From: a virus | Lineage: Duplodnaviria; Caudoviricetes | Virus record (IMG/VR): IMGVR_UViG_3300028833_000066 | Length of the DNA: 64,000 nt | Strand: one strand, 5' to 3' | Part shown: positions 6,132 to 21,669 of the stretch, one piece after another | Numbering within the stretch: the stretch's first letter is position 1 | How the letters are laid out: each line of letters begins with the position of its first letter | The notes under the pieces: generated by a model | Told to the model about the DNA's origin: nothing | What the model saw: only the letters and a program-made list of their open reading frames with translations | The model's database searches: none | Position numbers and translations under genes: made by a program

Positions 6132-6435
6132 AGAGATTCTCCTTTCGGTTTGTAGGGTGTCCTTCCCTTGATTACAGTTAGATTATATCACACATTTTGA
6201 TTATTGTCAAGAGATTTTTCAGAAGTTTCTGAAAATTTTTGTGTCCTCTCCGCATAAGCCAACCCTCTGGGGTGCTTATGCACGTGCGTTTCTTTACCGC
6301 CCCACCGAAGATTTCTTCGGGATGGTCGTCACATCCTCTTGACATTATTGATTATACCTGATGCCAAGACTTTTGTCAAGTAGTTTGTGCGATTTTCTTT
6401 TGTTAAGTTTTTCACAAGCGGGGCCGGCATAATAG

Positions 6436-6888: not shown

Positions 6889-6953
6889 TCCTTACACCCG
6901 TATTATATCACGCACAATAGAGTTAGTCAAGTATAACTTTGCCGGCGGCTGTC

Positions 6954-7205
6954 TCAACCCGCATAGAGTTGAGACAGAAAGTAGAGGTTGAGGACAATGC
7001 TGGAAAAATGAAGCAAGAAGTCATTTACATGGCGGTTCTGGTTAGTAAAGTCCTTAAAGATACCAATAAGAGCAATGCCAAGGCCGAACCAAGCAGAGCC
7101 GAAACCGCAAGTGATGATGAGAACAACATTGAGAACCATGCCCGCAGCACGCAAGTCCTGCCATTCAAGTTTATAAGGGGCATAAAGATTAAAGAACTTA
7201 CGCAT
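6954..7205 (-). CDS. Small membrane protein
   Basis: Hydrophobic segments; own promoter at about 7260. Confidence 0.7.
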   Translation of the reverse strand: MRKFFNLYAPYKLEWQDLRAAGMVLNVVLIITCGFGSAWFGLGIALIGIFKDFTNQNRHVNDFLLHFSSIVLNLYFLSQLYAG

Positions 7206-7519
7206 CTGGATTTCCCCTTCCCTTTTGTTCATCTATATTATATACTAATTTTTGATTTTTGTCAAGAGTCAATTTTGAAGTCCGCCACTCAATCGGGGCT
7301 ACCCGCTCATCCTCTTGCAGTGGGGTTCTCTTCCTCTTGACATCTTGATTATAGCATATAATGTGAGGTTAGTCAAGCCTAATTTTTATGCCGGCGACAG
7401 TTAGTTATGACTAAATAACTATTATGATAAAAAAAGAAAACCACCCCGAAGGGTGGCAAGGATGGGTTATTTCTCACCAATTACGCGACGCCAGAGATAG
7501 TGGCAACCTTGCGGGAGGC

Positions 7520-7852
7520 TTACGCCTTCCGATAGGCGTTGACCTTACCCTCAACCTTGACGACCTCGCCCGCCCACTGGTGGGTCAGAGCGTAGGACAG
7601 CTTGGACTTGGTGAAGTCCTCGGGAACCTCACCCTCGATGGCTTCCCACAGTTCAGCCACAGTCAGCGGAGCCTCAGTCAGCCCAAACTGAGCGAACACG
7701 ATGGGCTTAGCGGCTTCGTAGATTGCGGCCTTAGCAACCTTTACCGCATCGCCGCGATGAATTTCGCGGTTCAGTTCGTCCATAACCTCGGCGTTGTCGT
7801 AGTTGTAGTTGGTCAGAGCAGTGTAGATGGCATTCAGAGTAGCATTCTTCAT
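7520..7852 (-). CDS. Winged-helix-like protein, family A (copy 2)
   Basis: PLTVAELWE...FTKSKLSYALTHQW...VEGKVNAYR. Confidence 0.8.
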   Translation of the reverse strand: MKNATLNAIYTALTNYNYDNAEVMDELNREIHRGDAVKVAKAAIYEAAKPIVFAQFGLTEAPLTVAELWEAIEGEVPEDFTKSKLSYALTHQWAGEVVKVEGKVNAYRKA

Positions 7853-8197
7853 AGGGCAATTTCCTTTCTGGTTTTTAAGTGTTTTCCTTCACTTGATGTC
7901 TTTATTATATCATGGATTTGGGAGTTTGTCAAGGGGTTTCGCAAACTTTTTTCGCCCATTATGTTTGCTGGTGGCCAAATGTTTCTGTTTCCATGCGTTT
8001 TGTCTCTGTTGACTTTCGGCAACCACCTTGACTTGTCAGTGTGACTCCCTCACCTGACAATATTAATTATACTCTAATTTTGATTTTTGTCAAGCATTTT
8101 TTGAAAATTTCTTTGATAAATTTTTGACAATTGATGGTTATGTAGTCATAACTAACCGCCGCGCCGGCACGAAAAAAGGGTAATTAGATACCCTTCT

Positions 8198-8338
8198 TTA
8201 CAGAATCCTACACCAGAAAGCCGCGAGAAGAAGCCCCAAAAAGTAGTGAAGAATTATAGGTTTATCATCTTTGCGGCAAGCATTAGCGGTATATACTATC
8301 CAGACAAGAGTAAGCACGATGGCAATTGCAATTTTCAT
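8198..8338 (-). CDS. Small two-TM membrane protein (MKIAIAIVLTLVW...)
   Basis: ATGA overlap with the upstream gene; AGGAG RBS. Confidence 0.6.
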   Translation of the reverse strand: MKIAIAIVLTLVWIVYTANACRKDDKPIILHYFLGLLLAAFWCRIL

Positions 8339-8769
8339 TTTATTACTCCTTTCAGTACGCGGATGATTTCGTTAGGGGTGAAAGCGCCATCGCCCCATGC
8401 CTTGCGGTTCGGTTCCTCATCATCGAATAGGATGCCACCACCGCAAGCGGTGCGCTTGTCAGTACCATAGCGGACAATCTTGATTTCGTCCCATTCCACA
8501 GAAGGCAGATGCTTATGAAGCCATACCATTTTAGCAAGGGCAATCTCGCCATTGTAGAGATCAGAGCCACCACGGGAAGTCCACGAGATGATACCGATTT
8601 CATAACCATTCGCCTGTACCCTGTGAAGAAGCCGAGCGAGATATGCCATATTCACAAGGGGCTTCGCGATGTCGTAGGGACGAGTATCTTCATTGATAAG
8701 ATTTTCAAGCCACCCTTCCACGCCGTAGAGGTCAGCAATCGTTCCGTCCATGTCGAACCAAATAGTCAT
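8335..8769 (-). CDS. HAD-family phosphatase, 5'(3')-deoxyribonucleotidase-like (paralogue of 16774)
   Basis: FDMDGTIAD motif I and ILFDD motif IV. Confidence 0.85.
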   Translation of the reverse strand: MTIWFDMDGTIADLYGVEGWLENLINEDTRPYDIAKPLVNMAYLARLLHRVQANGYEIGIISWTSRGGSDLYNGEIALAKMVWLHKHLPSVEWDEIKIVRYGTDKRTACGGGILFDDEEPNRKAWGDGAFTPNEIIRVLKGVIK

Positions 8770-8834
8770 TTCTGACACCTTCCTTTCTTGGTGTAATTAT
8801 ATTATACTCTATTTTTAGATTTTGTCAAGGGGTT

Positions 8835-8972
8835 TTAAGAAAGAATTTTGATTACGCATCTTTCTTCTTTCCGAACGTGGGCAATTTGATAAAGCCAAAT
8901 GCGAATAATTTGACTCAATTTCAGTTCGCGGATTGTCTGCTGTCCTTTGCAATTACGGAGATAAACTTTCAT
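8835..8972 (-). CDS. Small hypothetical protein (MKVYLRNCKG...)
   Basis: Promoter at about 9020, GGAAGG RBS. Confidence 0.5.
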   Translation of the reverse strand: MKVYLRNCKGQQTIRELKLSQIIRIWLYQIAHVRKEERCVIKILS

Positions 8973-9059
8973 TCTTGGCACCTTCCTTTCATCCTTATTA
9001 TATCATATTGGTAGTAGTTAGTCAAGCCTAACTTTTCTGCCGGCGCCGAGGCGGCAGGC

Positions 9060-9776
9060 TCAAAGAGCCCACCGCTGTTCGATGTCATCGGGTTCAAGTT
9101 CTGCTTCGCGTTCCATTGCCTTGTGCATCCGCACGCACGCCGCGAAAATTTGTGCTTCAATCTGTACATCTTCAAGACCAGTGTGTGATTCAGTGAAGTT
9201 ATTGTCGCCAGTGAGGAATCGCCACAGAATTTCGGCGGTCTTGCGAACCTGCGGGACCTTATGCTTGGTCATATAACCATTTTCCTTGCAGAAAGCCACA
9301 TAATCAGCACGCTTGCAAATGGTATCCGTGGCCATCTTCATAGTGTCCCACACAGGCAAACCATAGGGGAAGAAGTACCGCCGCTTGCTCTTGGTCTGAT
9401 ACCGCATAGTGGTGTTCATTGTCCGCACATCAAACCGTGCATTGTGGGCAAGGATAGCCTTAACTTTGTAGTCTTCACAATCTTGCCGAAGCTGACGCCA
9501 AATGCCCCAAGTGTTGCGGACAATACGCTTGCCCTCGCGGATGTCCTGCTTGTACTGCGGGATTTTATCAGCAAAGAATGCTTCATTCATAGCCTGCGGC
9601 ATTTCGTAGAACACATCGCTATTCACGAACGAACGTTCGCAATATACCTTTCCTTCATTATCTACGATAGCCCAACCGCTATCATACACTTGACCGCTCG
9701 TGAGGTCAAGCTGACCCTTCTCATCCTTGGGAGTGTTGCAAGTCTCGCCATCAAACACAAGATACAGTTCCTTCAT
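9060..9776 (-). CDS. DEDDh 3'-5' exonuclease (paralogue of 11451)
   Basis: FDGET, AHNARFD and HTGLED motifs. Confidence 0.9.
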   Translation of the reverse strand: MKELYLVFDGETCNTPKDEKGQLDLTSGQVYDSGWAIVDNEGKVYCERSFVNSDVFYEMPQAMNEAFFADKIPQYKQDIREGKRIVRNTWGIWRQLRQDCEDYKVKAILAHNARFDVRTMNTTMRYQTKSKRRYFFPYGLPVWDTMKMATDTICKRADYVAFCKENGYMTKHKVPQVRKTAEILWRFLTGDNNFTESHTGLEDVQIEAQIFAACVRMHKAMEREAELEPDDIEQRWAL

Positions 9777-9887
9777 TTCGTCTTACCCCTTTCATTCGGT
9801 ACAGTCTTATTATACATTAGGGGAGGGGCTTTGTCAAGAGTTTTTTCAAACTTTTTTCAAATTTTCGGCCGGCGAAAAATGCGAAAA

Positions 9888-10412
9888 TTACATTTCCGCA
9901 TCCCACCCGTAGTCAATCACTACGGGCTTGCCCTTGTAATAGCCCACATTGAACTCGTGGAGGTCGCAAATGTTCTCCGTGAGCCAGTCATATTCTTCAT
10001 CGGTCACATAATCGCCCCAATACCGCCATTCGTCACCAACGCCATTGATACGCGGCATAATGGACACGATGCGGCCACCGATCGCCATCACGGTAGTTTT
10101 GGCGAGCAGATAGGCATAACCCGCATCAACCGCACGGGCATAGACTTCCTGCTCGGTAGAGTTATCACCCGCACGGCAACCACCGAAATCATCAAGCCAA
10201 TCTTCCGCGGGAGTAAGGTCAAACTTGATGACATAATCTGCACGCATAATGGCAATACGGGACACGCCGTGAGCATAGTTAAGCGGACGACTATGGGTAG
10301 AATTGTAATCTTTAATAGCTTCTTCAAAATCAGCAAGGGTAGAGCATGCAGAGAACAGGCGGACGAGCAGAGCGGCGAATTTAGCGGCACGAACTTCGTA
10401 AGTGTTCTTCAT
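9888..10412 (-). CDS. Minimal protein-kinase-like protein
   Basis: GVSRIA (Gly loop), VIKFD (Lys), EQEVY (helix C Glu), DLHEFNVG (catalytic loop), VIDYG (DFG-like). Confidence 0.75.
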   Translation of the reverse strand: MKNTYEVRAAKFAALLVRLFSACSTLADFEEAIKDYNSTHSRPLNYAHGVSRIAIMRADYVIKFDLTPAEDWLDDFGGCRAGDNSTEQEVYARAVDAGYAYLLAKTTVMAIGGRIVSIMPRINGVGDEWRYWGDYVTDEEYDWLTENICDLHEFNVGYYKGKPVVIDYGWDAEM

Positions 10413-10608
10413 CTTGATGTCCCCTTTCATTCGGTACATCTTGATTATACAATAACGGGGTACAAATGTCAAGGGGTTTTTGAAAAAAAGAGCAAGAAAT
10501 TTTCGTGCCGGCACGATTTTAAAATGCCGGCAGGTTAGTCATAACTAACTAACTATTATGAAAACAAAATAAAATGCCACCCGATAGGGGTGGCATTTCA
10601 GGTGAGCC

Positions 10609-10947
10609 TTACACCTTGAGGGTGTAGGTGTTCACCTTGCCAGTGGTCTTAATCACGCGGTCAGCCCACTGGTGACCGAGGGCATAGGTCAGCTTGCCCT
10701 TGGTGAAGTCAGAACCGACCTTGCCATCAAGGCTGTCAAAGATTTCGGCAACGGTGGCGCCTTCGGTCGCAGTAGCGAGAACCTCACGAACCGCGTTCCA
10801 GTTGTCCGCGTAAACCTGAGCCTTCGCGGCCTTTGCGGCATCACCGCGATGGAGTTCGGCGTTAACCTCAGCGAGAATGGCATCCTTGTTTTCGAAGTCA
10901 ACAGTGGACAGGACAGAAGCGATGGTGGACAGAGTGATGTTCTTCAT
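10609..10947 (-). CDS. Winged-helix-like protein, family A (copy 3)
   Basis: ATVAEIFD...FTKGKLTYALGHQW...GKVNTY. Confidence 0.8.
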   Translation of the reverse strand: MKNITLSTIASVLSTVDFENKDAILAEVNAELHRGDAAKAAKAQVYADNWNAVREVLATATEGATVAEIFDSLDGKVGSDFTKGKLTYALGHQWADRVIKTTGKVNTYTLKV

Positions 10948-11206
10948 ATAGAACCTTCCTTTCTCGTTTGTTTACGCGGTGTCGTTCCGCAATCTTTTTT
11001 TTGTGTTCCTCTTGGAACATCTTTATTGTATCACACCTTGCGGTGTTTGTCAAGAGGTTTTTCAAACTTTTTTTGGGGTGGGCATCCTGCCCTCGGCTTG
11101 CTTTCCCCTCCTGACATATTCTATTATACTCAGATTTTAAATTGTGTCAAGCATTTAAGAGCAAAAAGATTGACAACTTTTTAACAAGCCGCCGGCATAA
11201 TTGGCG

Positions 11207-11359
11207 TCAGTCATCATACTGACGCCCTTTGTGCTTTGGGGGCTTCCGCCGTTTATCGGGGATAATTTTAGTCACAGGGGAAATGGAACCCCAGTCACCG
11301 CGGATAGAGCGGACAATTTCAAATTGGGATTTAACCTGAGCCTTACGCTTCATTTTCAT
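11207..11359 (-). CDS. Small basic protein (MKMKRKAQ...KPPKHK)
   Basis: AAGGAGG RBS, promoter at about 11406. Confidence 0.65.
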   Translation of the reverse strand: MKMKRKAQVKSQFEIVRSIRGDWGSISPVTKIIPDKRRKPPKHKGRQYDD

Positions 11360-11450
11360 TGCCTCCTTCTTGGTACATTTTGATTATATCATAGTCAAAG
11401 CATTTTGTCAAGAGGAAATTTTCGGCTGGCCAAAAAGGATGCGTAATTTT

Positions 11451-12104
11451 TTACGCATCCCAGTTGAGACAAGTGGCATAAATGCGGGCTTCAATTTCAG
11501 TATCGCCAACGCCAGTATGCTCCTCCTCAAAATCAGTATTTTGAGTAAGGAATCTCCAAATTGCTTCCGCTGTTGCTCGCGGTCTCGGGATGGCGTGGTT
11601 GGTCATCAAACCATTTTCTTTACAAAAGGTTATATATTCATCAGTTTTACAAATGGTATTTCGTGCCAGTTTCATGGTATCAATTACAGGCATATTGTAC
11701 GGGATGAAATAACGTTTTTTGCTTTTAGTTTGATAACGCATAGTAGCATTGAGTACTCGAATATCGAAAGACGCATTGTGAGCGATGATAGCTTCAACAT
11801 GCCACTTGTCGCACAAGTCTCGGAAAATCTTATACATTCCCCAACTATCCGTGACTGTATATTTTTTGTCCCAAATGTCCCGCCAATACTGCGGAATCTT
11901 ATCCGCAAAATAAGCATCTTTCATCGTCTCGGGCATAGAGATGAAAACATCACGATTGATCACGGGCACAACTTCAAGGGTCTTGCCCTCGTCATTAATG
12001 ACGCGGAAGCAAGCGTCATAAACCTGCCCATCATCTGAAAATAGTTTACCATTAATTTTATAAGTGTTTGCGGTTTCAGTGTCCACGACCATTTTATTGC
12101 CCAT
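11451..12104 (-). CDS. DEDDh 3'-5' exonuclease
   Basis: VDTET, AHNASFD and HTGVGD motifs; shares MRYQTKSK.RYF with 9060. Confidence 0.9.
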   Translation of the reverse strand: MGNKMVVDTETANTYKINGKLFSDDGQVYDACFRVINDEGKTLEVVPVINRDVFISMPETMKDAYFADKIPQYWRDIWDKKYTVTDSWGMYKIFRDLCDKWHVEAIIAHNASFDIRVLNATMRYQTKSKKRYFIPYNMPVIDTMKLARNTICKTDEYITFCKENGLMTNHAIPRPRATAEAIWRFLTQNTDFEEEHTGVGDTEIEARIYATCLNWDA

Positions 12105-12244
12105 TTTAGAAAGCCTTTCTGGTTTGGGAGGTGTCCTTCCTCTTTTCAATGATGATTGTATCATATTTGTGCGAGTTTGTCAAGCCTAACTTTTTGGCCG
12201 GCGAGGTTAGTTATGACTAACTATTATATATAAAAAAATGGGGA

Positions 12245-12619
12245 TTACTCCCCATCCTTTTCGGCCTTCTTCGCGGCCTTTTCGGCACGCCGCTTGGCGT
12301 CAGCCGCGATCTTCGCGGCTTTCTTTTCCTCGGCGACCTTGTGCTTCTCGGCCTTTTCGGCACATTCGCGAGCGTAGCCATCCGCGGCGGCGTAGCCATC
12401 GTAGGCATTGTAGCCACCTTTACCGTTTCGAGTACCGCGAGGAGTAGAAACTTTTACCACAATCCACGCATCATCGCCCTCAGCGTCAACGCAAGGCAGG
12501 GCAATTTCATTGGAACTCACGCGGAGGACTTCTTCATCAGACAGAAGCCCGATGAACTTGTCAAGGAAGGAAGCACGGAGAGCGGATTCGATAGCAGTCT
12601 TAGTCATAGCCATAAGCAT
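12245..12619 (-). CDS. Family B protein with K/A-rich tail
   Basis: Similar to 5739; GAAAGGA RBS. Confidence 0.75.
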   Translation of the reverse strand: MLMAMTKTAIESALRASFLDKFIGLLSDEEVLRVSSNEIALPCVDAEGDDAWIVVKVSTPRGTRNGKGGYNAYDGYAAADGYARECAEKAEKHKVAEEKKAAKIAADAKRRAEKAAKKAEKDGE

Positions 12620-12781
12620 TTCCTTTCTGGTTTTTAAGAGTTTCCTTCTCTTATGTCTTGATTATACTACAGAGTGGAGGTTTTGTCAAGAGGAATTTTT
12701 TATCATCGTGAGGAGGTGTCCCTCATCCTCTTGACAATTATTATTATACTCAAAATTTGATTTTTGTCAAGTATTTTTTTC

Positions 12782-12818
12782 TATGAATATTTATAAATTT
12801 TTTGTATAATTATGCACT
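12782..12818. promoter_or_regulatory. Tandem ARG-box-like site
   Basis: TGAATATTTATAAA and TGTATAATTATGCA match TGNAT-W4-ATNCA with 1 and 0 mismatches. Confidence 0.5.
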
Positions 12819-12894
12819 GCCGGCACGAAAGTTAGTAATGACTAAATAACTATTGTATGCGTCAAAAGAAAAAAGACCCCGAAGGGTCTTTTAC

Positions 12895-13227
12895 TCACCG
12901 CAGGCGATACACATTACCGCCCTTGGTCTGCTCAACGCTCACAGCATCGTTCCAGTAGTGCAGGAGAGCATACTGTACCTTACCCTTGGTCATGCCATTG
13001 GGCAGAGTATCGCCACAGCTCTCCATCAGCTCCGACAGCGTAGCTCCATCAGTAGCCAGCTTCAGCTGTCCAAGCACCAGCTCGCGGGCCGATTCATACA
13101 GCTCCCGATTCGCAGCAGCCTTCTCGGCATTGCGATTCAGCTCCCGCATCAGCTCCGCACGGGCATCCGCCATCTCAGGCACGTTCTCAAGGAAGGAAAC
13201 AAGGGACTGCATAGTGGTCTTCTTCAT
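12895..13227 (-). CDS. Winged-helix-like protein, family A (copy 4)
   Basis: ATLSELME...MTKGKVQYALLHYW...NVYR. Confidence 0.8.
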   Translation of the reverse strand: MKKTTMQSLVSFLENVPEMADARAELMRELNRNAEKAAANRELYESARELVLGQLKLATDGATLSELMESCGDTLPNGMTKGKVQYALLHYWNDAVSVEQTKGGNVYRLR

Positions 13228-13620
13228 AGTGATATCCTTTCTGGTTTTTAGGACTTTTCCTTGTCCTCTTTACATCTTGATTATACCACAGTTTTGAGGT
13301 CTTGTCAAGTGTTTTTTGAAACTTTTTTTTCGTTTGCGGCAAGATTTCCGTGGCCTTTGGAATCTTGGGAGAGCAGTCCATCTTGCCGCATTCTTTCGGG
13401 TGGTGCCCCTCTGTCCTCCCGACACTTTATATTATACTCGGATTTAGGTTTCTGTCAAGTGTTTTTCGCAAAAAGTTTTGTAAAGTTTTTAACAATGTTG
13501 TTAGTTAGTTATAGCTAACTCGGCCGCCGGCAAAAGAGTTAGTTTCAGCTAACTCTCGTAATTATGCCGGCAGAAAAGTTAGTCGCAGCTAACTTTGCCG
13601 ATAAAAAAACTGACAGCGGC

Positions 13621-14070
13621 TTACGCCACCGCCAGCCCCGCCAGCGTCTTTTCGTTGGTCAGTTCAGCTCCGTCAAACTTGATTTGGAGCTCCCGCCCGT
13701 TCAGGCTCAGGTCTCCGGCCACCCAGAAGGGAACGCTATCCTTGACCCAGTGCTGACCAGCCAGCTCGGTGATGATCCGCTCAAAGTTCTCGCCCTTGTT
13801 GTGGTGGGTGTCAGCTTCCAGATCCTCGGCCTTGCCGATGATCTTGGCCAGCCCCTTGGCAATCAGGGCCAGCTTGTCAGCTTTCGCGACGCGGATGCGA
13901 ATCTTGGCCATGCCGCCCCGCTTGCTGGAAGCGTGGTCCAGCTTCAGCACGGCGTCAGGCAGCTCGGGCAGCTCGGCGGCGAACAGTTCGCCGTGGTGGA
14001 CAAAGCCGAGGACATAAGCATCAGCGGCAGAATGGGCTTCGTAGGTGTTCAGCATCTCTTCGCGGGTCAT
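13621..14070 (-). CDS. PD-(D/E)xK nuclease-like protein (paralogue of 18257)
   Basis: NKGENFE...PFWVAGD...QIKF pattern. Confidence 0.6.
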   Translation of the reverse strand: MTREEMLNTYEAHSAADAYVLGFVHHGELFAAELPELPDAVLKLDHASSKRGGMAKIRIRVAKADKLALIAKGLAKIIGKAEDLEADTHHNKGENFERIITELAGQHWVKDSVPFWVAGDLSLNGRELQIKFDGAELTNEKTLAGLAVA

Positions 14071-14154
14071 CGTGGTGGCCTCCCTTGCTTTCATCTTACA
14101 AGTAGATTATACAGTGCCGGACCGATTTTGTCAAGAGGTTTTTTGAAAAAAGTT

Positions 14155-14400
14155 ATTACATTTCTGTTAAGATTTTATAGACTTTTCGTAATACTTTTGT
14201 AATAGTTTCGTGCTTTAACGTGTTAAAGCGGAGATACCTCGGCAGGTGAGGTATCCCACGGTGGAGGTACTTCGGCAGGTGAGGTATTGCCGGCAAAGTA
14301 GTTAGTGACAACTAATCTGGTTAGTCATAACTAACTCTTATAATACTTATTTAGTCATAACTAACTCCGCGAAAATAGTTAGTTAGTTATAACTAACTTA
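14155..14400. promoter_or_regulatory. Operator cluster at the divergence point of the early block
   Basis: TGTAAT-type 11-bp repeats, CTTTAA-N4-TTAAAG (14211), two TACCTC-GGCAGGT-GAGGTA-type units, GCCGGC, and four AGTTAG-N6-CTAACT. Confidence 0.75.
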
Positions 14401-14595
14401 AAAAATCGCACCCTCGCCGTGGGTCCGACCGGTTCTCCGCTCCTCTGGTTATAGTATAGCACACTATGGAAAAATGTCAAGAGGTTTTCAAAAATTTTTT
14501 GAAAAAATTTTGCCGGCAAGATTTTGAAAAAAGTGCTTGACAAGTCCGGACAAGTATGTTATAATCAAGATGTAAAGAGAAGCAAGGAGGAAGAA

Positions 14596-14760
14596 ATGAT
14601 GAAGAGTTTCGAGGTTGAAATTAGCTGGGTAGAGGCTCATGGTTTCCGTTATGTGGTGAAGGATGGCAAGCTGTATTGGCAGACCGCGATTCAGACCGCG
14701 GAGATGGACGAGGATGGTCATATTGTATGGCATGAAAAAGAATATTTTAATCTTCTGTAA
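14596..14760 (+). CDS. Small hypothetical protein
   Basis: Promoter at 14537, AAGGAGG RBS. Confidence 0.7.
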   Translation: MMKSFEVEISWVEAHGFRYVVKDGKLYWQTAIQTAEMDEDGHIVWHEKEYFNLL

Positions 14761-14832
14761 AACCTCTTGACAAAACATTGACCGTCTGTTATAATCAAGA
14801 TGTACCAAAGAGATAGAAAGGAAGTAGGAACA

Positions 14833-15048
14833 ATGTACAAAACTACTTGGATTATCAGTGATGAAAGTGACGAGGGTATCTATCAGACAGAATTGACCTT
14901 GTATCATTTCGGAAAAACTCCCAAATTTCCCAGTTGGTACATGGAAGAAAATCACTCTTACGTGATTGAAATGGTTTGGAATTTCAAATTGATTGTTCGT
15001 CCTTCAATCTTCTTTAAGTGCCTGACCCATCAATACATTATCAAGTAA
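14833..15048 (+). CDS. Hypothetical protein
   Basis: Promoter at 14767, RBS. Confidence 0.65.
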   Translation: MYKTTWIISDESDEGIYQTELTLYHFGKTPKFPSWYMEENHSYVIEMVWNFKLIVRPSIFFKCLTHQYIIK

Positions 15049-15124
15049 AAAAGTACTTGACAAATCCGGCAACCTGTGCTATACTTAGATCGTACCAAGG
15101 GAAGAACAAAAGGAGGATCACAAA

Positions 15125-15433
15125 ATGATCACCATGCGTCATCTGCTGACCCTGAAAGAAAACGACGGCATGACCCTGAAAAACGGCGAGATGATCACTT
15201 ATAAAAGCGGCTGGCAAGTAGCCACCGAAGGCGTGGAATGTGTAAGTCCGAAGGATGCCATGCGTGCGATTAAGCAGTATAACGGCACTTGCGGCGTGTG
15301 GTACGCTGGCGGTATCTACTACATTGACAAAAGCCACCGCGTGAGCACGAAACGTGAGGCCATGGAGATCGGCCGCAAGTGCAAGCAGATTTCCGTCCTG
15401 CGCTGGCATGATATGGGACTTGTCTACTGCTGA
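15125..15433 (+). CDS. Hypothetical protein
   Basis: Promoter at 15057, AAGGAGG RBS. Confidence 0.8.
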   Translation: MITMRHLLTLKENDGMTLKNGEMITYKSGWQVATEGVECVSPKDAMRAIKQYNGTCGVWYAGGIYYIDKSHRVSTKREAMEIGRKCKQISVLRWHDMGLVYC

Positions 15434-15551
15434 GCAGTAGGCCGGAAAAATTTCTTTGAAAAAGTTTTGAAAAAGTGCTTGACAAATAATCGGGAATATG
15501 TTAATATATAGTCACCGGGAGGGACCCCGGAAGATAAAGGAGGAAACGAAA

Positions 15552-15719
15552 ATGACTCACATCAACAACCTGCCCCACACCTTCCGCGCTTGGATTGTCG
15601 CCCGTGAGGTTGATGGCGAGCTGTGGTTCTGGGGGTCTTGGGACTCCCGCGAGGCCGCGCAGGCCGCGGCGTGGGATATCGGCGGCGTGGTCGTGTCCCG
15701 CGACTGGGTGGAGGCCTGA
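15552..15719 (+). CDS. Family C small protein (paralogue of 16095)
   Basis: WIVAREVDGELWFWGSWD. Confidence 0.75.
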   Translation: MTHINNLPHTFRAWIVAREVDGELWFWGSWDSREAAQAAAWDIGGVVVSRDWVEA

Positions 15720-15914
15720 GCCTCCACCCCGGCACCGGATCCACCGGCGCCGTTTTTTATGCCGGCACAAAAGTTAGTTATGACTAACTGATTCGGATCG
15801 GCGGTTAGTTATAACTAACCGGAGTATGTTGCCCTGGCGCTCGGCTGAAAAAAGTTTTTAAAAAACTTTCAAAAACCTCTTGACAAACCCGCGAAAGTGT
15901 GGTAAGATTAAGAT

Positions 15915-16022
15915 GTACCAAGGGAAGAGAGAAGAAGAAAACAACCTCTCCCAAGCGCATAACTTGGTGAAGTAAAATCAAAACTCTCTACCAAACAGAC
16001 GAAACTTTCTTCCCTTGGTACA
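15915..16022 (+). ncRNA. Closed-stem small RNA candidate
   Basis: After promoter 15880; 5' TGTACCAAGGGAAGA pairs with 3' TCTTCCCTTGGTACA; no credible ORF. Confidence 0.55.
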
Positions 16023-16094
16023 CAAAAACCTCTTGACAAACCGGCCGCAATGCGCTATAATAAGACTGTAAAGAGAAGCAAGGAGGAAACACAA

Positions 16095-16271
16095 ATGCTG
16101 AACACCGAAGAAATCCGCAACGTCCCGACCTACGCCTACGGCCATCCCTATTGGGTGGTGCGCGAGGCGGACGGCGAGTACTGGTTCTATGGCGCGTATG
16201 ACACGCTCGCCCGCGCTCGCGAGGTGGCCGCGATGGTGGACGGCCTCCCCGTGGAGAACCCCGCGGCCTGA
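16095..16271 (+). CDS. Family C small protein
   Basis: YWVVREADGEYWFYGAYD. Confidence 0.75.
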   Translation: MLNTEEIRNVPTYAYGHPYWVVREADGEYWFYGAYDTLARAREVAAMVDGLPVENPAA

Positions 16272-16529
16272 CCCGCCGCGGGTCTTTTTTTGCCCGGATC
16301 GCCGGCATGAAAAAAGTTTGGAAAAATTGCAAAAAGGGCTTGACAGACTTGACATATCATGCTATAATAAGGATGGTGGAGGAGGGCCCAACTATATAAG
16401 TTAGTCATAACTAACTAAATTGCCGGCGAAAAAGTTTGCGGAAAATGAAAAAACCTCTTGACAATTCCGGCAAGATATGCTAATATATAGTCACAGGGAG
16501 GAACCCTGGAAGATAAGGAGGAACGCAAG

Positions 16530-16691
16530 ATGCTGACTGAAAATTCTGGAAAGTACGAAATCCTTGGTTATCTCGTGGAAAATGGCTTTGACCTCGGTGA
16601 CATGACAATGGATGAATGGGCTACGGCCTACACCATGGAGGAACTGTGGGGCATCGTCCAGTATATGCTCGGGCAGGTGGAGGACTGGTAA
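16530..16691 (+). CDS. Small acidic protein (MLTENSGKYEILG...)
   Basis: Promoter at 16458, AAGGAGG RBS. Confidence 0.7.
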   Translation: MLTENSGKYEILGYLVENGFDLGDMTMDEWATAYTMEELWGIVQYMLGQVEDW

Positions 16692-16773
16692 GTCCTTCGC
16701 AATCTCGAAAAAAAGTACTTGACAAAATACACCTTATCCTGTATAATTAAGATGTAGAAAGGAAGTGCTCACA

Positions 16774-17202
16774 ATGACGATCTGGTTCGACATGGATGGC
16801 ACAATCGCTGACCTGTATGGTGTGAACAACTGGCTTGACTATCTGCTTGCCCACGATGCTACACCTTACAAGGTTGCAAAGCCTCTTGTCAATATGAACG
16901 TGCTTGCTCGCAAGCTGAACGCTTTACGTAAGCAAGGTTACAAGGTTGGTATCATCTCTTGGCTGAGCAAAAACAGCACTGCCGAATATGACAACGCCGT
17001 GACCTTGGCAAAGCGTGCTTGGCTGGCTGAGCACTTGGCAAGCGTGGCCTTTGATGAGATCCGCATCGTCTCCTATGGTGTGAATAAATGGCAAGCCTGC
17101 GGTGAAGGAATCTTATTCGACGATGAAGAGAAAAACCGCAAGGATTGGAAAAACGACGCCTTTGAACCTTGCCACATTATGGAAGTCTTGAAGAGCCTGT
17201 GA
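16774..17202 (+). CDS. HAD-family phosphatase (nucleotidase-like)
   Basis: FDMDGTIAD and ILFDD; paralogue of 8335. Confidence 0.85.
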   Translation: MTIWFDMDGTIADLYGVNNWLDYLLAHDATPYKVAKPLVNMNVLARKLNALRKQGYKVGIISWLSKNSTAEYDNAVTLAKRAWLAEHLASVAFDEIRIVSYGVNKWQACGEGILFDDEEKNRKDWKNDAFEPCHIMEVLKSL

Positions 17203-17282
17203 CAAGGTTCTTTTTTTATAATAGTACGGTTAGTCATAACTAACTCGCTTGCCGGCATTAAAAAAGAGTAACCACTACATGG

Positions 17283-17432
17283 TTACTCTTTTGCCTTGTC
17301 ATTGGCAAGGGCAAGGGCAAACGCCTGCATGATGAAGCCGATCACAACACCTATAAGCCACCAATCACACCGAGACAGATAGCACATAAGCCCGCAAATA
17401 GTGCTGAGGAAGACGCCGAGATAGCCCATCAT
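17283..17432 (-). CDS. Small two-TM membrane protein, the only inverted cassette in the right arm
   Basis: MMGYLGVFLSTICG...; own TTGACT/TATAAT promoter (about 17465-17492) and terminator. Confidence 0.65.
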   Translation of the reverse strand: MMGYLGVFLSTICGLMCYLSRCDWWLIGVVIGFIMQAFALALANDKAKE

Positions 17433-17791
17433 TTTAGCCCCTTCTTTCCTTTGGTTTCACCTATATTATATCAGAAATTTTGTAAAAGTCAAGTAATAAT
17501 TTTGTAATAGGTGGAGGATTCTGCTCCGAAAAGTCTACCGGCAAATAATAAGAAAAAAGGGCTTGACAAAATCGCCGGCATAATGTATAATAAAGATGCA
17601 CCGGAACGGAGAGACAGGGGAGAGTGAAGACATGAGTTAGTTATAACTAATTACCTTTTCGGCACTGGTGGAGGCTCAAAAAAAATTTTTGAAAAATGAA
17701 AAAGTGCTTGACAAGTCCGGCATTGTGTGCTATACTTTAATCACGGTGGAGGGAGACCGAAGCCGAATAGAAAGAAAAGGGGACTTCAAAA

Positions 17792-18010
17792 ATGACTATC
17801 CGCGAATACTTCGACACTATCTATGCCACCGAGGATTTTGAGGACGCCGCCGACTATGAGCGGACTATCTACCACTGCATGGAAGAGGACTTCGACGACT
17901 TCACTATGTGGGCAGTGGAAAACGGCATTGACCTGACCGCCACCACTGAAATCATGGGCGAAACCGTGCCCGTGTTGCTCGCGTGGGCGTGGGATATGTG
18001 CGAAGAGTGA
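17792..18010 (+). CDS. Very acidic small protein (DNA-mimic candidate)
   Basis: D/E- and aromatic-rich; promoter at 17708. Confidence 0.75.
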   Translation: MTIREYFDTIYATEDFEDAADYERTIYHCMEEDFDDFTMWAVENGIDLTATTEIMGETVPVLLAWAWDMCEE

Positions 18011-18256
18011 AAACCCTTCGCCTTTTCTTTTTTTGTAAAAAGTGCTTGACAAGTCTGCCGGTCTGTGCTATACTATCATCAGAGGAAGGGAAAACGCTTC
18101 GGACCAACGGCGGACCTGCCCATTTTTATTTTTGACTATCTTTGATCTTTGTGGACTATGGGCAAAAACTTTTTTCGTAAAAATGCAAAAAAGGGCTTGA
18201 CAAGTTTACCGGCAAGGTGTATAATCAGGGTGAAGATAAGGAAAGGGGACATCACC

Positions 18257-18709
18257 ATGATGAACACTCTGCTGACCGCCTACAACAAGCTGACTGCCGC
18301 CACCATCTACTTTATCGGCTTCGTCCTCTCCGGCACCGTCTACGGTGGCTATTTCACCGAAATTCCCACCGCCGCCCTGAAACTTGACCACGAAAGCACC
18401 GCCCGCGGCGGCGCGGCGAAAATCCGCATTCGCTTTAATAAGGACTTAAAGCTTGCCCTCAAGGCACAAGGCAAAGTCAAAGCCCTTGCCACCATCGAAG
18501 CACTTGCCGCCGACCCCCGTTATAACAAAGGCGACAACTTTGAGAAGCTGATTGCTGAACTGAACGGCATTCAGTGGGCGAAAAACTCTGACCCCTTTTG
18601 GGTCGCTGGAGACCTTGAAATCAACGGCGAACAGGTACAAGTCAAGTTTGACGGTGCGGAACTGGTGAATGAAAAATCCCTCCGCAAAGCCCTGACGGTT
18701 GCCGCCTGA
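18257..18709 (+). CDS. PD-(D/E)xK nuclease-like protein
   Basis: NKGDNFE...PFWVAGD...QVKF; paralogue of 13621. Confidence 0.6.
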   Translation: MMNTLLTAYNKLTAATIYFIGFVLSGTVYGGYFTEIPTAALKLDHESTARGGAAKIRIRFNKDLKLALKAQGKVKALATIEALAADPRYNKGDNFEKLIAELNGIQWAKNSDPFWVAGDLEINGEQVQVKFDGAELVNEKSLRKALTVAA

Positions 18710-18739
18710 GTGGCAACCTTCTTTTTTTATTTTTTCATA

Positions 18740-19385
18740 ATAGTTACTTAGTTATCACTAACTCGCTCGACTTTAATGCTTTAATGCAATGAAGTGGAGG
18801 AAAACTATTCGCGTCAATTTACACGCTTTAATGCGTTAAAGAGTTGTTAAATTTTTAACAATCGCCCCACCCTCATGTTTTCTTCAATACTTTAATGCAT
18901 TAAAGTGGGTCTGCGGCAGAATACTTATTTAGTTATAACTAACTCGCTCGATGCTATATTGTTAAATTTTTAACAAGCGGCCCACCTTTATGGTTTAGCA
19001 CTTTAATGTGTTAAAGTGGAGGCACCTGTAACACTTTTGTAACAAATTAAAATCCTGCTTAGTCGGCCGGTATCGTTATAAATCCATAATATTTGAAAGG
19101 TGGAGGGTGGTTCTTGTTCGCGTTTTATTTTTCAAAATAAGCATACCCCCGCCCGCGGAAAAGGATTTATAATTGTTACACCCCACAGTGAAATTTTGTA
19201 ACATTTTTGTAACAAATTCGGACCTACCCTAGCTTCCAGGTGCTAGCTTCCAGCATTTTCCAGACCCCGGGGGCTAGCTTTCGGGATTTTTTGAAAAGTT
19301 AGTCTAGACTAACTAGGGGCGTGCCCAAATTCCACCAACTTTTTTAAAAAATAACTTAAACCACCAACTTTTAAAAATAACCTTC
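18740..19385. promoter_or_regulatory. Gene-free operator and repeat cluster at the right border of the early block
   Basis: Four CTTTAA-N4-TTAAAG-type sites, two TTGTTAA-N4-TTAACAA, two TGTAAC-N5-TGTAAC, three AGTTAG-N6-CTAACT, TAGCTTCCAG repeats and a CCACCAACTTTT repeat. Confidence 0.85.
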
Positions 19386-19463
19386 AAAACTAATACTCAA
19401 ACACTTGACAATGCCAAGCCCGATATGTTATAATTTAATCAAGGCAAAGAGGTGTTGAAACAA

Positions 19464-20792
19464 ATGAAAAAAGCTTATTCCCTTGATTATTCAATAGAAC
19501 GCGATACAGACCGTACCGCCGCTATCTATGATATACTTGATCGTTTGGACAAAGTGCCAAGTAATACAGAACTTGAACAAATGGCCAACTACATACTTTA
19601 TGGTAAAGATGAAAATGATTAGAATACGGTACAAAGAAAAGAAATAACTGACTCCAACAAGAGATACGGCTCCTTTAAAACTATGGATGACAAACTTCTT
19701 TCATTGGATGAAATATTAGATAATCCAATGGCAGATCATCAAATTTTGGAGCAAAGATATAAACCCTCAGTTTACAAAAAGCCAAAGCCGCATATTGATA
19801 TGCCGAAATATGATAAAAAGACGGGGGCCCTAATAGACCCTGGCGATTCCGACATTCCGTACATGAAAGAACTATGGGACTCTATTAATAGAATGGAACA
19901 TACCGTTGCGGTAAATGAGGGGAAAATTGCGGCCGACGATACTACTCCCATTCTTAAAGATGATTATCGCCTTTATTAGTTAAAGCATTGGCTAATTGAC
20001 TTACGGCGCCACCAATATTATTTGAAGGATGTATATAAACCTGAATTACACTTTTTAGGTATGGATCATCCAAAGCCCCAATTTTACGATTGGACCTCTG
20101 ATGCATTTTACTGGATTTCACGTGACGAGTGGCAAAAAAAGGTTGACAATTCATTAGTACATTATATTTCCAAAAACATTGATGACTATGAGAAACGCAT
20201 TAATCCTTATACTGGAAAAGAAGAAATTAAGTGGGTTGTACGCGAACACCATTTTGATTGGGAAAACCCCGCACATGTAAAGGCTTTAATAAATTGGTAT
20301 GAACCATTGTATGATTAGCTATATGAAAAATTAGATACTTATGGCCGCACCTTAATATGGGACTTTGAACGCTATCGTAAAATGGCCAATTTTTCAGAAG
20401 TAAGAAATTTTATTTTAGAACTAAAAATTCATCGCACTCCTTATAGTGAAATAGTTGAGTTATTACAAAAAACTTATGGACTAAAATATACTGAAAATTA
20501 TTTATGCACAATTTTATCAAAAGAAATACCAGAAAAAATAGCACAAACAGCATAGAAATGGCGCCTTATTGTTGAGACACCCGAAGACGAGTTAAAAGAA
20601 TGTTATACGTGCGGCCGCAAGCTACCACGACACAAACTCTTCTTTGTGTGTAATAAAAACAGAAAGGATGGTTTCTCATCTAATTGTAAAGAATGTGAGA
20701 AATTACATCGTATTGAAAGAGGAGGTCAAAGTGTAGATGACTAGCGAAATAAAGAAACGCAAGTGCTTAAAATGCAAATAGGAAAAACCTGA
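19464..20792 (+). CDS. Hypothetical protein with C-terminal Zn finger, possible regulator (TAG=Gln)
   Basis: Promoter at 19405. Track fragments 19683 and 20022 share the frame. CYTCG...NCKEC; ends at TGA. Confidence 0.75.
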
Positions 20793-21669
20793 ACATGCGT
20801 TTTAGCCTACTAAATCTCCATTCTTTCCGGGCCATCGTTCTCTTATTTGTACAAGCTGTTTGGAAACGTTAATACATTAGGATAATTTAAATGAAGTTGA
20901 TGCGCTTTGCCGCTATTTAGACTTGCCGCTGGATCTTAATAAATGGACTTAGCTGTATGATATACATAAAGATCATACATTATCAGCTTATTTTAATACA
21001 TTGCTTGATGATAGGTATGCGGCCATAAGCTGGGCCGATGAAAATGAGCGCTGGCGGCTAGCCCGTGAAGAAGGCACTATAGATGATGAAATAGATAAAA
21101 TTTCTGAATCTAAGTTGAAGAGACTAAAAAAAGATTGGTCTCCATCATATACTAAAGATGAACTATTATTTTTAGAAGATTATTATAATTAGATTATTGC
21201 CACTTAGAATGTTTCAACTCCAATCTTAAAATCACGTGCCCGTGATCTTTGTGAATTAACATTGCGTGCGAAAAAAGCTATGCGCGAAGGCTTAGATGTA
21301 AAAAAGGATATGGACGCTATCGCGGCTATAATTAAGGATTGTAAGTTTGAGGCTAATAATGCTAAAAATGCGGCCGACTTTGAATCCGTTGGAGAACTTA
21401 TGGTTTATTATGGAAAAAAGGGCTGGCATCCAAAATGGCACACAGAACCGCAAGATTCAATGGATTTTATGATGTAGAATATTTAGAACTACTTAAAGCG
21501 GCTAGTTATAAATGAAGGTAATTTTGCTGAACAAGTAGAAGATAAAAAAGCTCGTTATAATATGACTGAGCGTCTAGAAGAAATTGAAAATGAAGCAGTT
21601 GAATTTGATGATACTGCTGATATAGAATATGAGGGCGAAGATGAACTCGTCGGTGATTTAAATGAATGA
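20737..21669 (+). CDS. Zn-finger protein, possible terminase small subunit (TAG=Gln)
   Basis: CLKC...CTSC N-terminus; directly upstream of and overlapping terL. Confidence 0.6.

What the first reader, a model, noticed from the sequence alone, without database searches (positions are those of the whole stretch)
18740..19320. Gene-free, promoter-free stack of about 11 operator-like sites in 580 bp
Order seen: AGTTAG-type (18746), HisR-like (18777, and 18824 directly abutting Rex-like 18844), HisR-like 18888, AGTTAG-type 18927, Rex-like 18959, HisR-like 18999, TGTAAC-N5-TGTAAC (19027, 19197), AGTTAG-type 19297. There is nothing here to regulate in cis, which argues for a decoy or structural role. 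It sits at the inferred genome end.
Basis: partly seen in the sequence, partly recalled or inferred. Interest (0 to 1): 0.85.

Follow-up and report, generated by a model that had tools for sequence, protein, structure and literature searches.

The report
Phage stack of host-repressor operator sites
A 740-base gene-free stretch of a gut-bacterium phage is packed with exact copies of the DNA docking sites of the host's own regulators (histidine, redox and envelope/phosphate sensors) mixed with a phage-specific site, and related phages carry similar arrays, so the phage probably recruits or soaks up host regulators, which has not been described before.

Summary
The intergenic stretch 18710-19451 has no conserved ORF and no consensus promoter before 19405. 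It holds 12 operator-like sites of four families, all far above chance.

The labels mostly hold:
- B sites match the published Firmicute HisR consensus cacTTTA-N6-TAAAgtg.
- C sites match the Clostridiaceae Rex consensus exactly, twice.
- D sites fit the (degenerate) WalR/PhoP direct-repeat rule.
- The AGTTAG palindrome is the phage's own motif, with about 30 copies across the 18.5-kb early island and essentially none in a candidate host chromosome.

Relatives decide the reading. In 50 related phages, the 2.5 kb upstream of the same gene holds 65 HisR, 11 Rex, 16 CIRCE (HrcA) and 15 CtsR-like boxes. The 2.5 kb downstream holds none. Complete relatives encode no TrpR-, Rex- or OmpR-type protein. 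A candidate host MAG (Acutalibacteraceae) uses the same HisR box upstream of hisR.

Corrections: a perfect sigma-A promoter for the phage sigma-like gene lies 85 bp right of the stated end. The right third of the stretch is that promoter's conserved upstream module. The "genome end" has no support.

Best reading: a host-regulator operator hub, most likely a repressor sponge and/or host-state sensor. Function is untested. The scan noted a similar array in another genome (e1-5687458).

The parts
18257..18709 (+). Last ordinary early gene (150 aa from ATG 18257). It belongs to a conserved phage-only family of unknown fold, and HisR-type box clusters often lie next to its members.
   Evidence: 23-sequence alignment A3. 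AF2 model pLDDT 93.9. No PDB fold match; only viral hypothetical proteins in the Atlas. In relatives, 5 of 7 family genes lie within about 250 bp of a B cluster.
18697..18727 (+). Intrinsic terminator closing the upstream gene
   Evidence: 9-bp stem with 6 GC pairs, followed by a T run
18746..18763 (.). A site 1: phage-specific palindrome ACTTAGTTATCACTAACT (AGTTAG-N6-CTAACT type). It is preceded by the cassette signature CATAATAGTTA.
   Evidence: the same terminator-TAATAG-A arrangement occurs at other early cassettes
18771..18794 (.). Two overlapping degenerate HisR-type boxes (CTTTAATGCTTTAATG / CTTTAATGCAATGAAG), followed by GTGGAGG at 18794-18800
18826..18841 (.). HisR-type box CTTTAATGCGTTAAAG (core perfect)
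   Evidence: consensus from PMC9413887
18844..18861 (.). Rex-type box TTGTTAAATTTTTAACAA, an exact match to the Clostridiaceae Rex consensus. It lies 2 nt after the HisR-type box.
   Evidence: The same HisR-Rex abutment occurs in L019 and L009.
18888..18907 (.). HisR-type box tACTTTAATGCATTAAAGTG, a perfect 16-bp palindrome that matches 13 of the 14 specified consensus positions
18927..18944 (.). A site 2: ATTTAGTTATAACTAACT
18959..18976 (.). Rex-type box 2, identical to the first
18999..19018 (.). HisR-type box CACTTTAATGTGTTAAAGTG (all 14 specified consensus positions match), followed by GTGGAGG starting at 19016
19027..19048 (+). Direct repeat TGTAACA-N4-TGTAACA (11-bp period, OmpR-family WalR/PhoP type), copy 1
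   Evidence: conserved in L009
19174..19218 (+). Inverted half-site TGTTACA (19174) and direct-repeat copy 2 (19197-19218)
   Evidence: aligned with L009
19229..19292 (+). CTAGCTTCCAG repeats, then the conserved GC hairpin CCCGGGGGCTAGCTTTCGGG. Only in this window is the hairpin followed by a T run.
   Evidence: The element is conserved in L009, L013, L014, L019 and L052.
19297..19314 (.). A site 3: perfect palindrome AGTTAGTCTAGACTAACT, in the variable 'slot' just upstream of the promoter module
   Evidence: In relatives the same slot holds CtsR-like heptads or TGTTAAG 11-bp repeats.
19320..19385 (+). Two copies of (ATT)CCACCAACTTTT + A/T run. This is the most conserved promoter-upstream element of the clade.
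19405..19434 (+). Perfect sigma-A type promoter: TTGACA-N18-TATAAT with an extended -10 TG
   Evidence: conserved in all relatives inspected
19452..20792 (+). Sigma-factor-like protein with a C-terminal zinc ribbon (446 aa, 5 in-frame TAG read as Q). First gene of the recoded block that continues with terminase and portal.
   Evidence: phrog_5767 E 6e-17; alignment A2. The fold is not resolved.
14213..14228 (.). The only HisR-type box outside the stretch. It lies upstream of the minus-strand paralog (13621-14094) of the gene at 18257-18709.

Best explanation
The stretch is the last non-coding 'hub' of the phage's 18.5-kb early host-takeover island.

It is built from high-affinity consensus operators for host transcription factors:
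- HisR, the TrpR-family histidine repressor: 3 perfect and 2 weak boxes.
- Rex, the redox repressor: 2 perfect boxes.
- An OmpR-family WalR/PhoP-type regulator: 2 direct-repeat units.

These are interleaved with 3 copies of the phage's own early-cassette palindrome. The stretch ends in the conserved upstream module and sigma-A promoter of the phage sigma-like gene.

Proposed working (inferred, not shown): host regulators dock on these sites. The sites are consensus-perfect, arrayed and mostly away from promoters, and they multiply with every replicated phage genome. They would therefore titrate low-abundance host repressors. That would de-repress histidine supply and NADH-recycling metabolism here, and chaperones and Clp proteases in relatives that carry CIRCE or CtsR boxes. 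The sites nearest the promoter may in addition couple expression of the sigma-like gene to host state.
For: Site identity:
- B equals the published HisR consensus cacTTTAnnnnnnTAAAgtg.
- C equals the Clostridiaceae Rex consensus TTGTTAANNNNTTAACAA, twice.
- Both families are far above chance.

Conservation of the kind of element, not just the sequence:
- L009 (83% aa identity in the sigma-like protein encoded just downstream) has about 10 HisR boxes at the homologous place.
- L019 has 8 Rex boxes, 4 HisR boxes and 5 A sites.
- L052 and L069 have five HisR boxes at a 41-bp period.
- L031 has four CIRCE elements at a 49-bp period, interleaved with A sites.
- Across 50 relatives, the upstream 2.5 kb holds 65 HisR, 11 Rex, 16 CIRCE and 15 CtsR-like boxes. 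The downstream 2.5 kb holds none of any kind.

No cognate regulator in the phages: complete relatives have no Trp_repressor, Rex N-domain or Trans_reg_C match.

Candidate host uses the same box:
- Relatives' contigs are binned with Clostridia MAGs.
- An Acutalibacteraceae MAG encodes hisR and rex.
- Its only two chromosomal perfect HisR boxes lie upstream of hisR and of an amino-acid ABC transporter operon.
- It has no perfect Rex consensus and 3 CIRCE elements. One phage genome therefore carries as many or more perfect sites than the host chromosome.

The A palindrome is phage-specific.

Most sites do not overlap any promoter.
Against:
- Host assignment rests on MAG binning only.
- The WalR/PhoP rule is degenerate (0.87 matches expected by chance). 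In relative G007 such repeats sit upstream of every early promoter, so they may be plain promoter architecture.
- HisR-type clusters often adjoin genes of one phage protein family of unknown fold. That family could be the true binder.
- A strong promoter lies 85 bp away, so a purely cis-regulatory role is not excluded.
- WalR and PhoP are mainly activators, which fits a sponge less well.
Confidence: 0.4

Rival explanations
1. Host-state sensor acting in cis. The same host regulators bind, but the purpose is to gate phage transcription. The main target would be the sigma-like gene that launches the recoded late programme. Progression would then depend on histidine, redox and envelope or phosphate status, as Spo0A boxes do in phi29.
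For: - A perfect promoter lies directly to the right.
- The promoter-upstream module is conserved.
- The 'slot' next to it holds different site types in different relatives: the A palindrome, CtsR-like heptads or TGTTAAG 11-bp repeats.
- A weak extended -10 (TGCTATATT, 18952-18960) overlaps Rex box 2.
Against: - The Rex and HisR boxes lie 390-630 bp upstream of the promoter.
- Relatives carry arrays of 5-10 identical boxes, more than cis control needs.
- No consensus promoter lies inside the stretch.
Confidence: 0.24
2. Sites for phage-encoded proteins only. Unrecognised phage regulators would bind the A, B, C and D sites to form an insulator or shut-off complex between early and late transcription, for example the conserved 150-aa family encoded next to B clusters. 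The likeness to host consensus sequences would be convergent.
For: - The A motif is clearly phage-specific and interleaved with the other sites.
- B clusters adjoin genes of the 150-aa family in the window and in G007, G008, G009 and G010.
- That family has a confident but unmatched fold.
Against: - Exact matches to four or five unrelated host consensus sequences are hard to get by convergence. These include perfect 27-bp CIRCE elements in relatives.
- No TrpR, Rex or OmpR-type domains occur in complete relatives.
Confidence: 0.13
3. Replication origin. The repeated dyads would be iterons for an initiator, placed in a large non-coding region at the early/late boundary, as in several lactococcal and Bacillus phages.
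For: - The region is long and non-coding, with repeats whose copy number and spacing vary. Relatives show regular 24-, 25- and 41-bp periods.
- An adjacent strong promoter could activate an origin.
Against: - There are several unrelated site families instead of one iteron.
- The same families recur in 2-3 separate clusters per genome.
- There are no DnaA boxes and no marked AT-rich unwinding element apart from the promoter region.
- No initiator gene is recognisable nearby.
Confidence: 0.08
4. T5-like boundary element. The early island would be a long terminal repeat or first-entering segment. The repeat-rich stretch at its inner edge would bind host proteins to pause DNA entry (an injection-stop signal), or would mark the physical end or packaging site.
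For: - T5's iss is a 1.2-1.7-kb non-coding region at the inner end of the pre-early segment. It is full of repeats, palindromes and host DnaA boxes.
- This island likewise has self-contained early cassettes, two 5'-deoxyribonucleotidase-like genes and two DnaQ-like exonuclease paralogs.
- The packaging genes start 2.2 kb downstream.
Against: - There is no evidence of termini. The assemblies are contiguous and circular, with 48-127-bp overlaps.
- Contig breaks near the stretch fall at scattered positions.
- Similar hubs occur inside the island.
- There is no relation to T5.
Confidence: 0.08
5. A structured non-coding RNA gene or genes
For: - The left part folds better than shuffles (z = -4.2).
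- A conserved hairpin with G-U-compatible changes lies at 19266-19285.
- GTGGAGG motifs elsewhere follow promoters.
Against: - The z-score is what palindromic DNA sites would give on either strand.
- 19095-19295 folds no better than shuffles on either strand.
- There is no Rfam match and no internal consensus promoter.
- The central 6 nt of the dyads vary without complementarity, which fits protein half-sites.
Confidence: 0.04

Closest known systems
Phage T5 injection-stop (iss) / Repeat Region 3 in the left terminal repeat
   Same: A long gene-free region at the inner edge of the pre-early/host-takeover segment. [quoted passage not shown] The site order is conserved while neighbouring genes vary (10.1101/866236).
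   Different: No terminal repeat or two-step entry is shown here. The host boxes are for metabolic and stress repressors (HisR, Rex; CIRCE and CtsR in relatives), not DnaA. Several such hubs occur per island. The phages are unrelated.
Host-regulator boxes in virulent Firmicute phages (phi29 Spo0A boxes and parS-like sites; own knowledge)
   Same: A lytic phage carries consensus sites for a host global regulator, so that host physiology is read out on phage DNA.
   Different: phi29's boxes overlap its early promoters and act in cis. Here most boxes are far from promoters, come in arrays, and belong to several unrelated regulators.
Repressor titration by multicopy operators / chromosomal decoy loci such as datA for DnaA (own knowledge)
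   Same: Clusters of high-affinity sites that lower the free concentration of a DNA-binding protein without regulating a neighbouring gene.
   Different: These are known from bacterial chromosomes and engineered plasmids. I found no report of a phage array aimed at several host repressors.
HisR, Rex and HrcA (CIRCE) operators of Firmicutes
   Same: The sequences equal the published consensus sequences. The same HisR box stands upstream of hisR and of an amino-acid transporter operon in a candidate host MAG.
   Different: The sites are not upstream of his, redox or chaperone genes, and they are multiplied in tandem in phage non-coding DNA.
T4-type promoter-early-stem-loop (PeSL) cassettes (own knowledge)
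   Same: The surrounding island is a chain of small genes, each with its own strong early promoter and terminator and a stereotyped spacer. This suits modular shuffling.
   Different: The spacers here carry a specific 18-bp palindrome plus GCCGGC, and the hubs carry host operator arrays.

Membership tests
HisR (TrpR-family) operator | 20-bp palindrome cacTTTA-N6-TAAAgtg | tested here: met
   18999-19018 matches all 14 specified positions. 18888-19907 region: 18888-18907 matches 13 of 14. 18826-18841 is core-perfect.
HisR (TrpR-family) operator | Lies in the promoter region of histidine biosynthesis or transport genes, or of hisR | tested here: not met
   The sites lie in phage non-coding DNA between a gene of unknown function and the sigma-like gene.
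HisR (TrpR-family) operator | A HisR protein is available in the cell and uses this box | tested here: inconclusive
   The host is unknown. An Acutalibacteraceae MAG that holds a related phage contig has hisR with a perfect box about 60 nt upstream, and a second box upstream of an ABC transporter operon. The phages encode no TrpR-family protein.
Rex operator (Clostridiaceae type) | TTGTTAA-N4-TTAACAA inverted repeat | tested here: met
   Two exact copies at 18844 and 18959, with 0.08 expected at up to 1 mismatch.
Rex operator (Clostridiaceae type) | Overlaps or adjoins the promoter of a redox or fermentation gene | tested here: not met
   No consensus promoter lies nearby. Only a weak extended -10 overlaps box 2.
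WalR/PhoP-type response-regulator box | Direct hexamer repeats TGTWAH-N5-TGTWAH (the opposite strand reads as TTHACA repeats), 11-bp period | tested here: met
   Present at 19027 and 19197. The rule is degenerate, with 0.87 matches expected by chance. The 22-nt unit is conserved in L009.
Phage replication origin | One iteron family, an AT-rich unwinding element, and host DnaA boxes or an adjacent initiator gene | tested here: not met
   Four site families are present. There are no DnaA boxes, no distinct AT-rich block outside the promoter, and no initiator recognised.
T5-type injection-stop region | Non-coding repeat and palindrome cluster with host-protein boxes at the inner end of the pre-early segment | tested here: met
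T5-type injection-stop region | Lies in a long terminal repeat and stops first-step DNA transfer | not testable with these tools
The assemblies are circular, with 48-127-bp overlaps.
Known non-coding RNA family | Match to an Rfam covariance model, or a fold more stable than shuffles with covariation | tested here: not met
   No credible Rfam match in 17000-21000. 19095-19295 gives z about 0 on both strands.
cos/pac packaging site | Terminase cut site with mapped ends, next to a small-terminase gene | not testable with these tools
   No reads were available. No small terminase is recognised. The large terminase gene starts at 21662.

The most novel reading that the evidence does not exclude
A clade of large TAG-recoded Clostridia phages carries non-coding 'operator sponges'. 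These are arrays of consensus binding sites for several host repressors: HisR and Rex here, and HrcA/CIRCE and CtsR in relatives. The arrays are interleaved with a phage-specific site. As the genome replicates, they would titrate those repressors and switch on host amino-acid supply, redox metabolism and chaperones without encoding any protein for the purpose.
Probability: 0.35. Interest if true: 0.92.

Novelty: new variant of a known kind. Interest (0 to 1): 0.8.

Why it matters
Phages are known to take over hosts with proteins and small RNAs, and a few read single host regulators through operator sites at their own promoters. A non-coding DNA module that collects perfect operators of several unrelated host repressors would be a different, protein-free takeover or sensing device. 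In this clade the module's repertoire changes from phage to phage.

Why it would matter:
- It is directly testable by EMSA or ChIP, and by deleting the arrays.
- It would give a new way to infer the hosts and host physiology of uncultured gut and rumen phages from their operator repertoire.
- It would matter for annotating phage 'junk' intergenic DNA.

Tried and rejected
- No DNA match in the INPHARED phage collection.
- Rfam gave only sub-threshold chance hits.
- RNA folding of 19095-19295 gave z about 0 on both strands.
- The AF2 model of the sigma-like protein was poor (pLDDT 58.6), and Foldseek found nothing usable. No PDB sequence match for it or for the upstream protein.
- I suspected a PD-(D/E)xK nuclease in the upstream 150-aa protein, from its invariant E, GD and QxK residues. 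The confident model matched no nuclease or any solved fold (Foldseek E > 0.3, VIA best Z 2.8). I dropped the idea.
- DnaA boxes are absent from the stretch.
- I tested the island's two edges for being repeats of each other. Only the A motif is shared.
- The pile-up of IMG/VR contig ends just upstream of the sigma-like gene looked like a terminus. The break points are scattered over about 100 nt, which fits assembly breaks at a variable/conserved boundary.
- The 'direct terminal repeats' of complete relatives are 127 and 48 bp, that is, assembly overlaps.
- The phAss-1 record is too distant to transfer its PhageTerm start.
- ORFs that open under TAG=Q inside the stretch are not frame-conserved in L009.
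- C-like one-mismatch hits elsewhere in the island (4197, 6400, 13478) look like parts of promoter and A-tract sequence, not Rex boxes.

Full report
**Context**

The window belongs to a large tailed phage that reads TAG as a sense codon in its late genes. Under TAG=Q, the plus strand from 19452 to 55865 becomes one run of long genes. These include a sigma-like protein, large terminase, portal and a 4955-aa giant ORF with 152 TAG codons. Under the standard code this run is shattered.

The portal is about 29% identical to those of phAss-1, Enterococcus EF1-like phages and Lactococcus 949-like phages. phAss-1 is a described TAG-recoded gut phage (PMC10607447).

Positions about 900-19400 form a GC-richer (about 45% against 31%), TAG-free island of small genes. 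Genes lie on the minus strand up to about 14200 and on the plus strand after about 14400.

Nearly every island gene has its own near-consensus sigma-70-type promoter and terminator. The spacers between cassettes are stereotyped: terminator, TCATAATAGTTA, the 18-bp palindrome AGTTAGTyATrACTAACT ('A'), GCCGGC, an A-tract, then TTGACx-17-TATAAT.

Recognisable island products are two NT5C-type deoxyribonucleotidases and two DnaQ-like exonuclease paralogs. This is host-takeover-type content.

**The observation**

The finding lies in the 742-bp intergenic gap 18710-19451. This gap separates the last ordinary island gene (real start probably ATG 18257) from the sigma-like gene.

Against dinucleotide shuffles of the window:
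- B: 16 strand-matches against 2.3 expected.
- The Rex pattern: 5 against 0.08.
- A: 30 against 0.18.
- The degenerate WalR rule: 4 against 0.87.

No ORF is conserved in frame with the closest diverged relative. No consensus promoter lies inside 18740-19320.

Two corrections apply:
- A 12/12 promoter with an extended -10 sits at 19405-19434.
- The A sites are not peculiar to this stretch. They are the island-wide cassette motif.

**What the sites are**

B fits the published common consensus of HisR operators in Firmicutes, cacTTTAnnnnnnTAAAgtg. That consensus was validated in vitro for Ruminococcus gnavus HisR (PMC9413887). The copy at 18999-19018 matches every specified position.

C equals the Rex motif used for Clostridiaceae, TTGTTAANNNNTTAACAA, twice and exactly (PMC9600882).

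D fits TGTWAH-N5-TGTWAH, the WalR rule (papers found). On the other strand it reads as PhoP-type TTHACA repeats. This rule is loose, so only the duplication and the conservation in L009 give it weight.

A is different. In a candidate host MAG, nearly all A matches lie on the binned phage contig, and the chromosome shows no excess over the control pattern. A is therefore the phage's own site.

**Relatives**

A 99%-identical IMG/VR contig spans the stretch, so the junction is not an assembly artefact.

L009 is 83% identical in the sigma-like protein. It has a homologous 1.05-kb gap with about ten HisR-type boxes, Rex-type boxes, the D unit, the hairpin, the A palindrome, the CCACCAAC element and the promoter.

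A profile search returned 162 relatives, of which 80 were fetched. Many carry arrays at the same place:
- L052 and L069: five HisR-type boxes at a 41-bp period.
- L092 and L029: 24-25-bp periods.
- L019: eight Rex boxes, five A sites and four HisR boxes within 1.2 kb.
- Many others: TGTWAH/TGTTAAG repeats at an 11-bp period just upstream of the promoter.

Prompted by an earlier scan note on another genome, I scanned for CIRCE, the 27-bp HrcA operator. Ten of 50 full-flank relatives have it. L031 has four copies, three of them perfect, at a 49-bp period and strictly interleaved with A sites.

Summed over the 50 relatives, the 2.5 kb upstream of the sigma-like gene holds 65 HisR, 11 Rex, 16 CIRCE, 15 CtsR-like, 98 response-regulator-type and 76 A sites. 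The 2.5 kb downstream holds none of any kind.

In whole relatives the HisR-type boxes are confined to the early island, in two or three clusters. One relative inspected in detail shows a second such hub 5 kb away.

**Who could bind**

Complete relatives that carry these arrays encode no Trp_repressor, Rex N-terminal or OmpR-type winged-helix domain.

Related contigs are binned in Clostridia MAGs, mainly Acutalibacteraceae. This is weak host evidence.

One such MAG encodes hisR and rex. Its only two chromosomal perfect HisR boxes lie about 60 nt upstream of hisR and about 50 nt upstream of an amino-acid ABC transporter operon. That is the regulon the HisR paper describes. The MAG has no perfect Rex consensus and three CIRCE elements.

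A single phage genome thus carries as many or more perfect operators than the whole host chromosome.

One competing lead remains. HisR-type clusters frequently adjoin genes of the 150-aa family encoded at 18257-18709; a paralog lies at 13621-14094, next to the box at 14213. This family has a confident predicted fold that matches nothing solved.

**Anatomy of the stretch**

The left two-thirds (18746-19220) is the variable operator stack.

The right third is a conserved control module for the sigma-like gene:
- CTAGCTTCCAG repeats and a conserved GC hairpin (19229-19292).
- A variable 'slot', holding the A palindrome here and CtsR-like heptads or TGTTAAG repeats in relatives.
- The strongly conserved (ATT)CCACCAAC + T-run element.
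- The promoter.

A sigma-A promoter in front of a phage sigma-like gene at the end of the early island makes that gene the last early cassette. Its five TAG codons would tie its translation to the phage suppressor tRNA. Both points are inference.

**Mechanism**

The data show a conserved, rapidly re-shuffled array of consensus operators for host regulators, interleaved with a phage-specific site and mostly not at promoters.

I rank a repressor sponge first (0.40). The sites are perfect, arrayed and promoter-distant, they multiply with replication, and they belong mostly to repressors whose removal would plausibly help a phage: histidine supply, NADH recycling, chaperones and Clp.

A cis-acting host-state sensor for the sigma-like gene is second (0.24) and may coexist with the sponge.

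Other readings:
- Phage-only binders: 0.13.
- Replication origin: 0.08.
- T5-iss-like entry, terminus or packaging element: 0.08.
- Non-coding RNA: 0.04.

The T5 region (10.1101/866236) is the closest described object in form. None of these functions is shown here.

**Genome end**

Contigs are continuous across the stretch, and the end repeats of complete relatives are 48 and 127 bp. Contig breaks near the stretch are scattered. Reads could not be examined.

**Novelty**

Host-regulator boxes in phage DNA are known singly (phi29 Spo0A boxes, LexA boxes, the proposed DnaA boxes of T5). Multi-regulator operator arrays in non-coding hubs were not found in the literature search.

I rate the finding a new variant of a known kind. 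It would become a new kind of takeover device if titration is demonstrated.

Noticed in passing
window 19452-55865 (+), 55904-64000 (-): Late genes are readable only with TAG as a sense codon (probably Gln). They include a 4955-aa ORF (33786-48653) with 152 TAG codons and an 1848-aa ORF (50319-55865). The early island has essentially no in-frame TAG.
   Followed up: partly
window 900-19314: About 30 copies of AGTTAG-N6-CTAACT and 30 of GCCGGC are confined to the early island (GCCGGC occurs only 3 times in the other 44 kb). They sit in a fixed order between each terminator and the next consensus promoter. The palindrome is absent from a candidate host chromosome, so a phage-encoded binder is expected.
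   Followed up: partly
window 14260-19106 (+ strand): (G)GTGGAGG occurs 13 times on the + strand. Ten of these lie in the plus-strand half of the island and none lies beyond 19106. Several copies lie 5-9 nt after a -10 box, so they would fall at the 5' end of transcripts. This may be an SD-like 5' stabiliser; that is inference only.
   Followed up: partly
window 14095-14487: A second gene-free hub sits at the point where island transcription diverges. It has one HisR-type box, two near-identical hairpins (GATACCTCGGCAGGTGAGGTATC type), GGTGGAGG, GCCGGC and four to five A sites in 100 bp.
   Followed up: no
window 585-900: The left edge of the island is also non-coding and repeat-rich, with five to six CCAGCTCC units and ATTTTCCAGC repeats. 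Apart from the A motif it shares nothing alignable with the right edge.
   Followed up: partly
window 18257-18709 and 13621-14094 (-): Two paralogs of a conserved phage-only 150-aa family. The AF2 model is very confident (pLDDT 93.9) but has no solved-structure match. Invariant residues include E, GD and QxK. Relatives have up to three tandem copies (G009).
   Followed up: yes
window 8335-8778 (-), 16765-17202 (+), 9060-9776 (-), 11451-12164 (-): Two NT5C-like 5'-deoxyribonucleotidases and two DnaQ-like exonuclease paralogs (phrog_20187) lie in the early island. This recalls the dmp and host-DNA-degradation functions of T5's pre-early region.
   Followed up: partly
L031 1050-1240 (IMGVR_UViG_3300038675_000167): Four CIRCE (HrcA) operators, three of them perfect, at a 49-bp period. 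They alternate strictly with A sites and are flanked by inverted TGTAACA. The array lies between divergent early promoters.
   Followed up: yes
L019 1300-1960 (IMGVR_UViG_3300021400_000347): Eight identical Rex-consensus boxes (ATTGTTAAAAGTTTAACAATC) are interleaved with A and HisR-type boxes. The array also contains a mini-cassette: consensus promoter, GGTGGAGG, then a terminator hairpin. That cassette would give an RNA of about 35 nt.
   Followed up: partly
L098 (G007:151800-159100): In this relative every early promoter has a TTAACA-N5-TTTACA (PhoP/WalR-type) repeat about 27 nt upstream. The window has GCCGGC plus an A-tract in that position. Cassette architecture is therefore lineage-specific.
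   Followed up: partly
L028, L070, L076, L077, L082, L085, L094, L096: Eight of about 20 truncated IMG/VR contigs begin within about 100 nt upstream of the sigma-like gene, at scattered positions. This is probably assembly breakage where the variable hub meets the conserved gene.
   Followed up: partly
window 18826-18861; L019 about -1002 to -968; L009 5079-5115: A HisR-type box directly abutting a Rex-type box (0-3 nt apart) recurs in three lineages. This suggests a composite unit.
   Followed up: no
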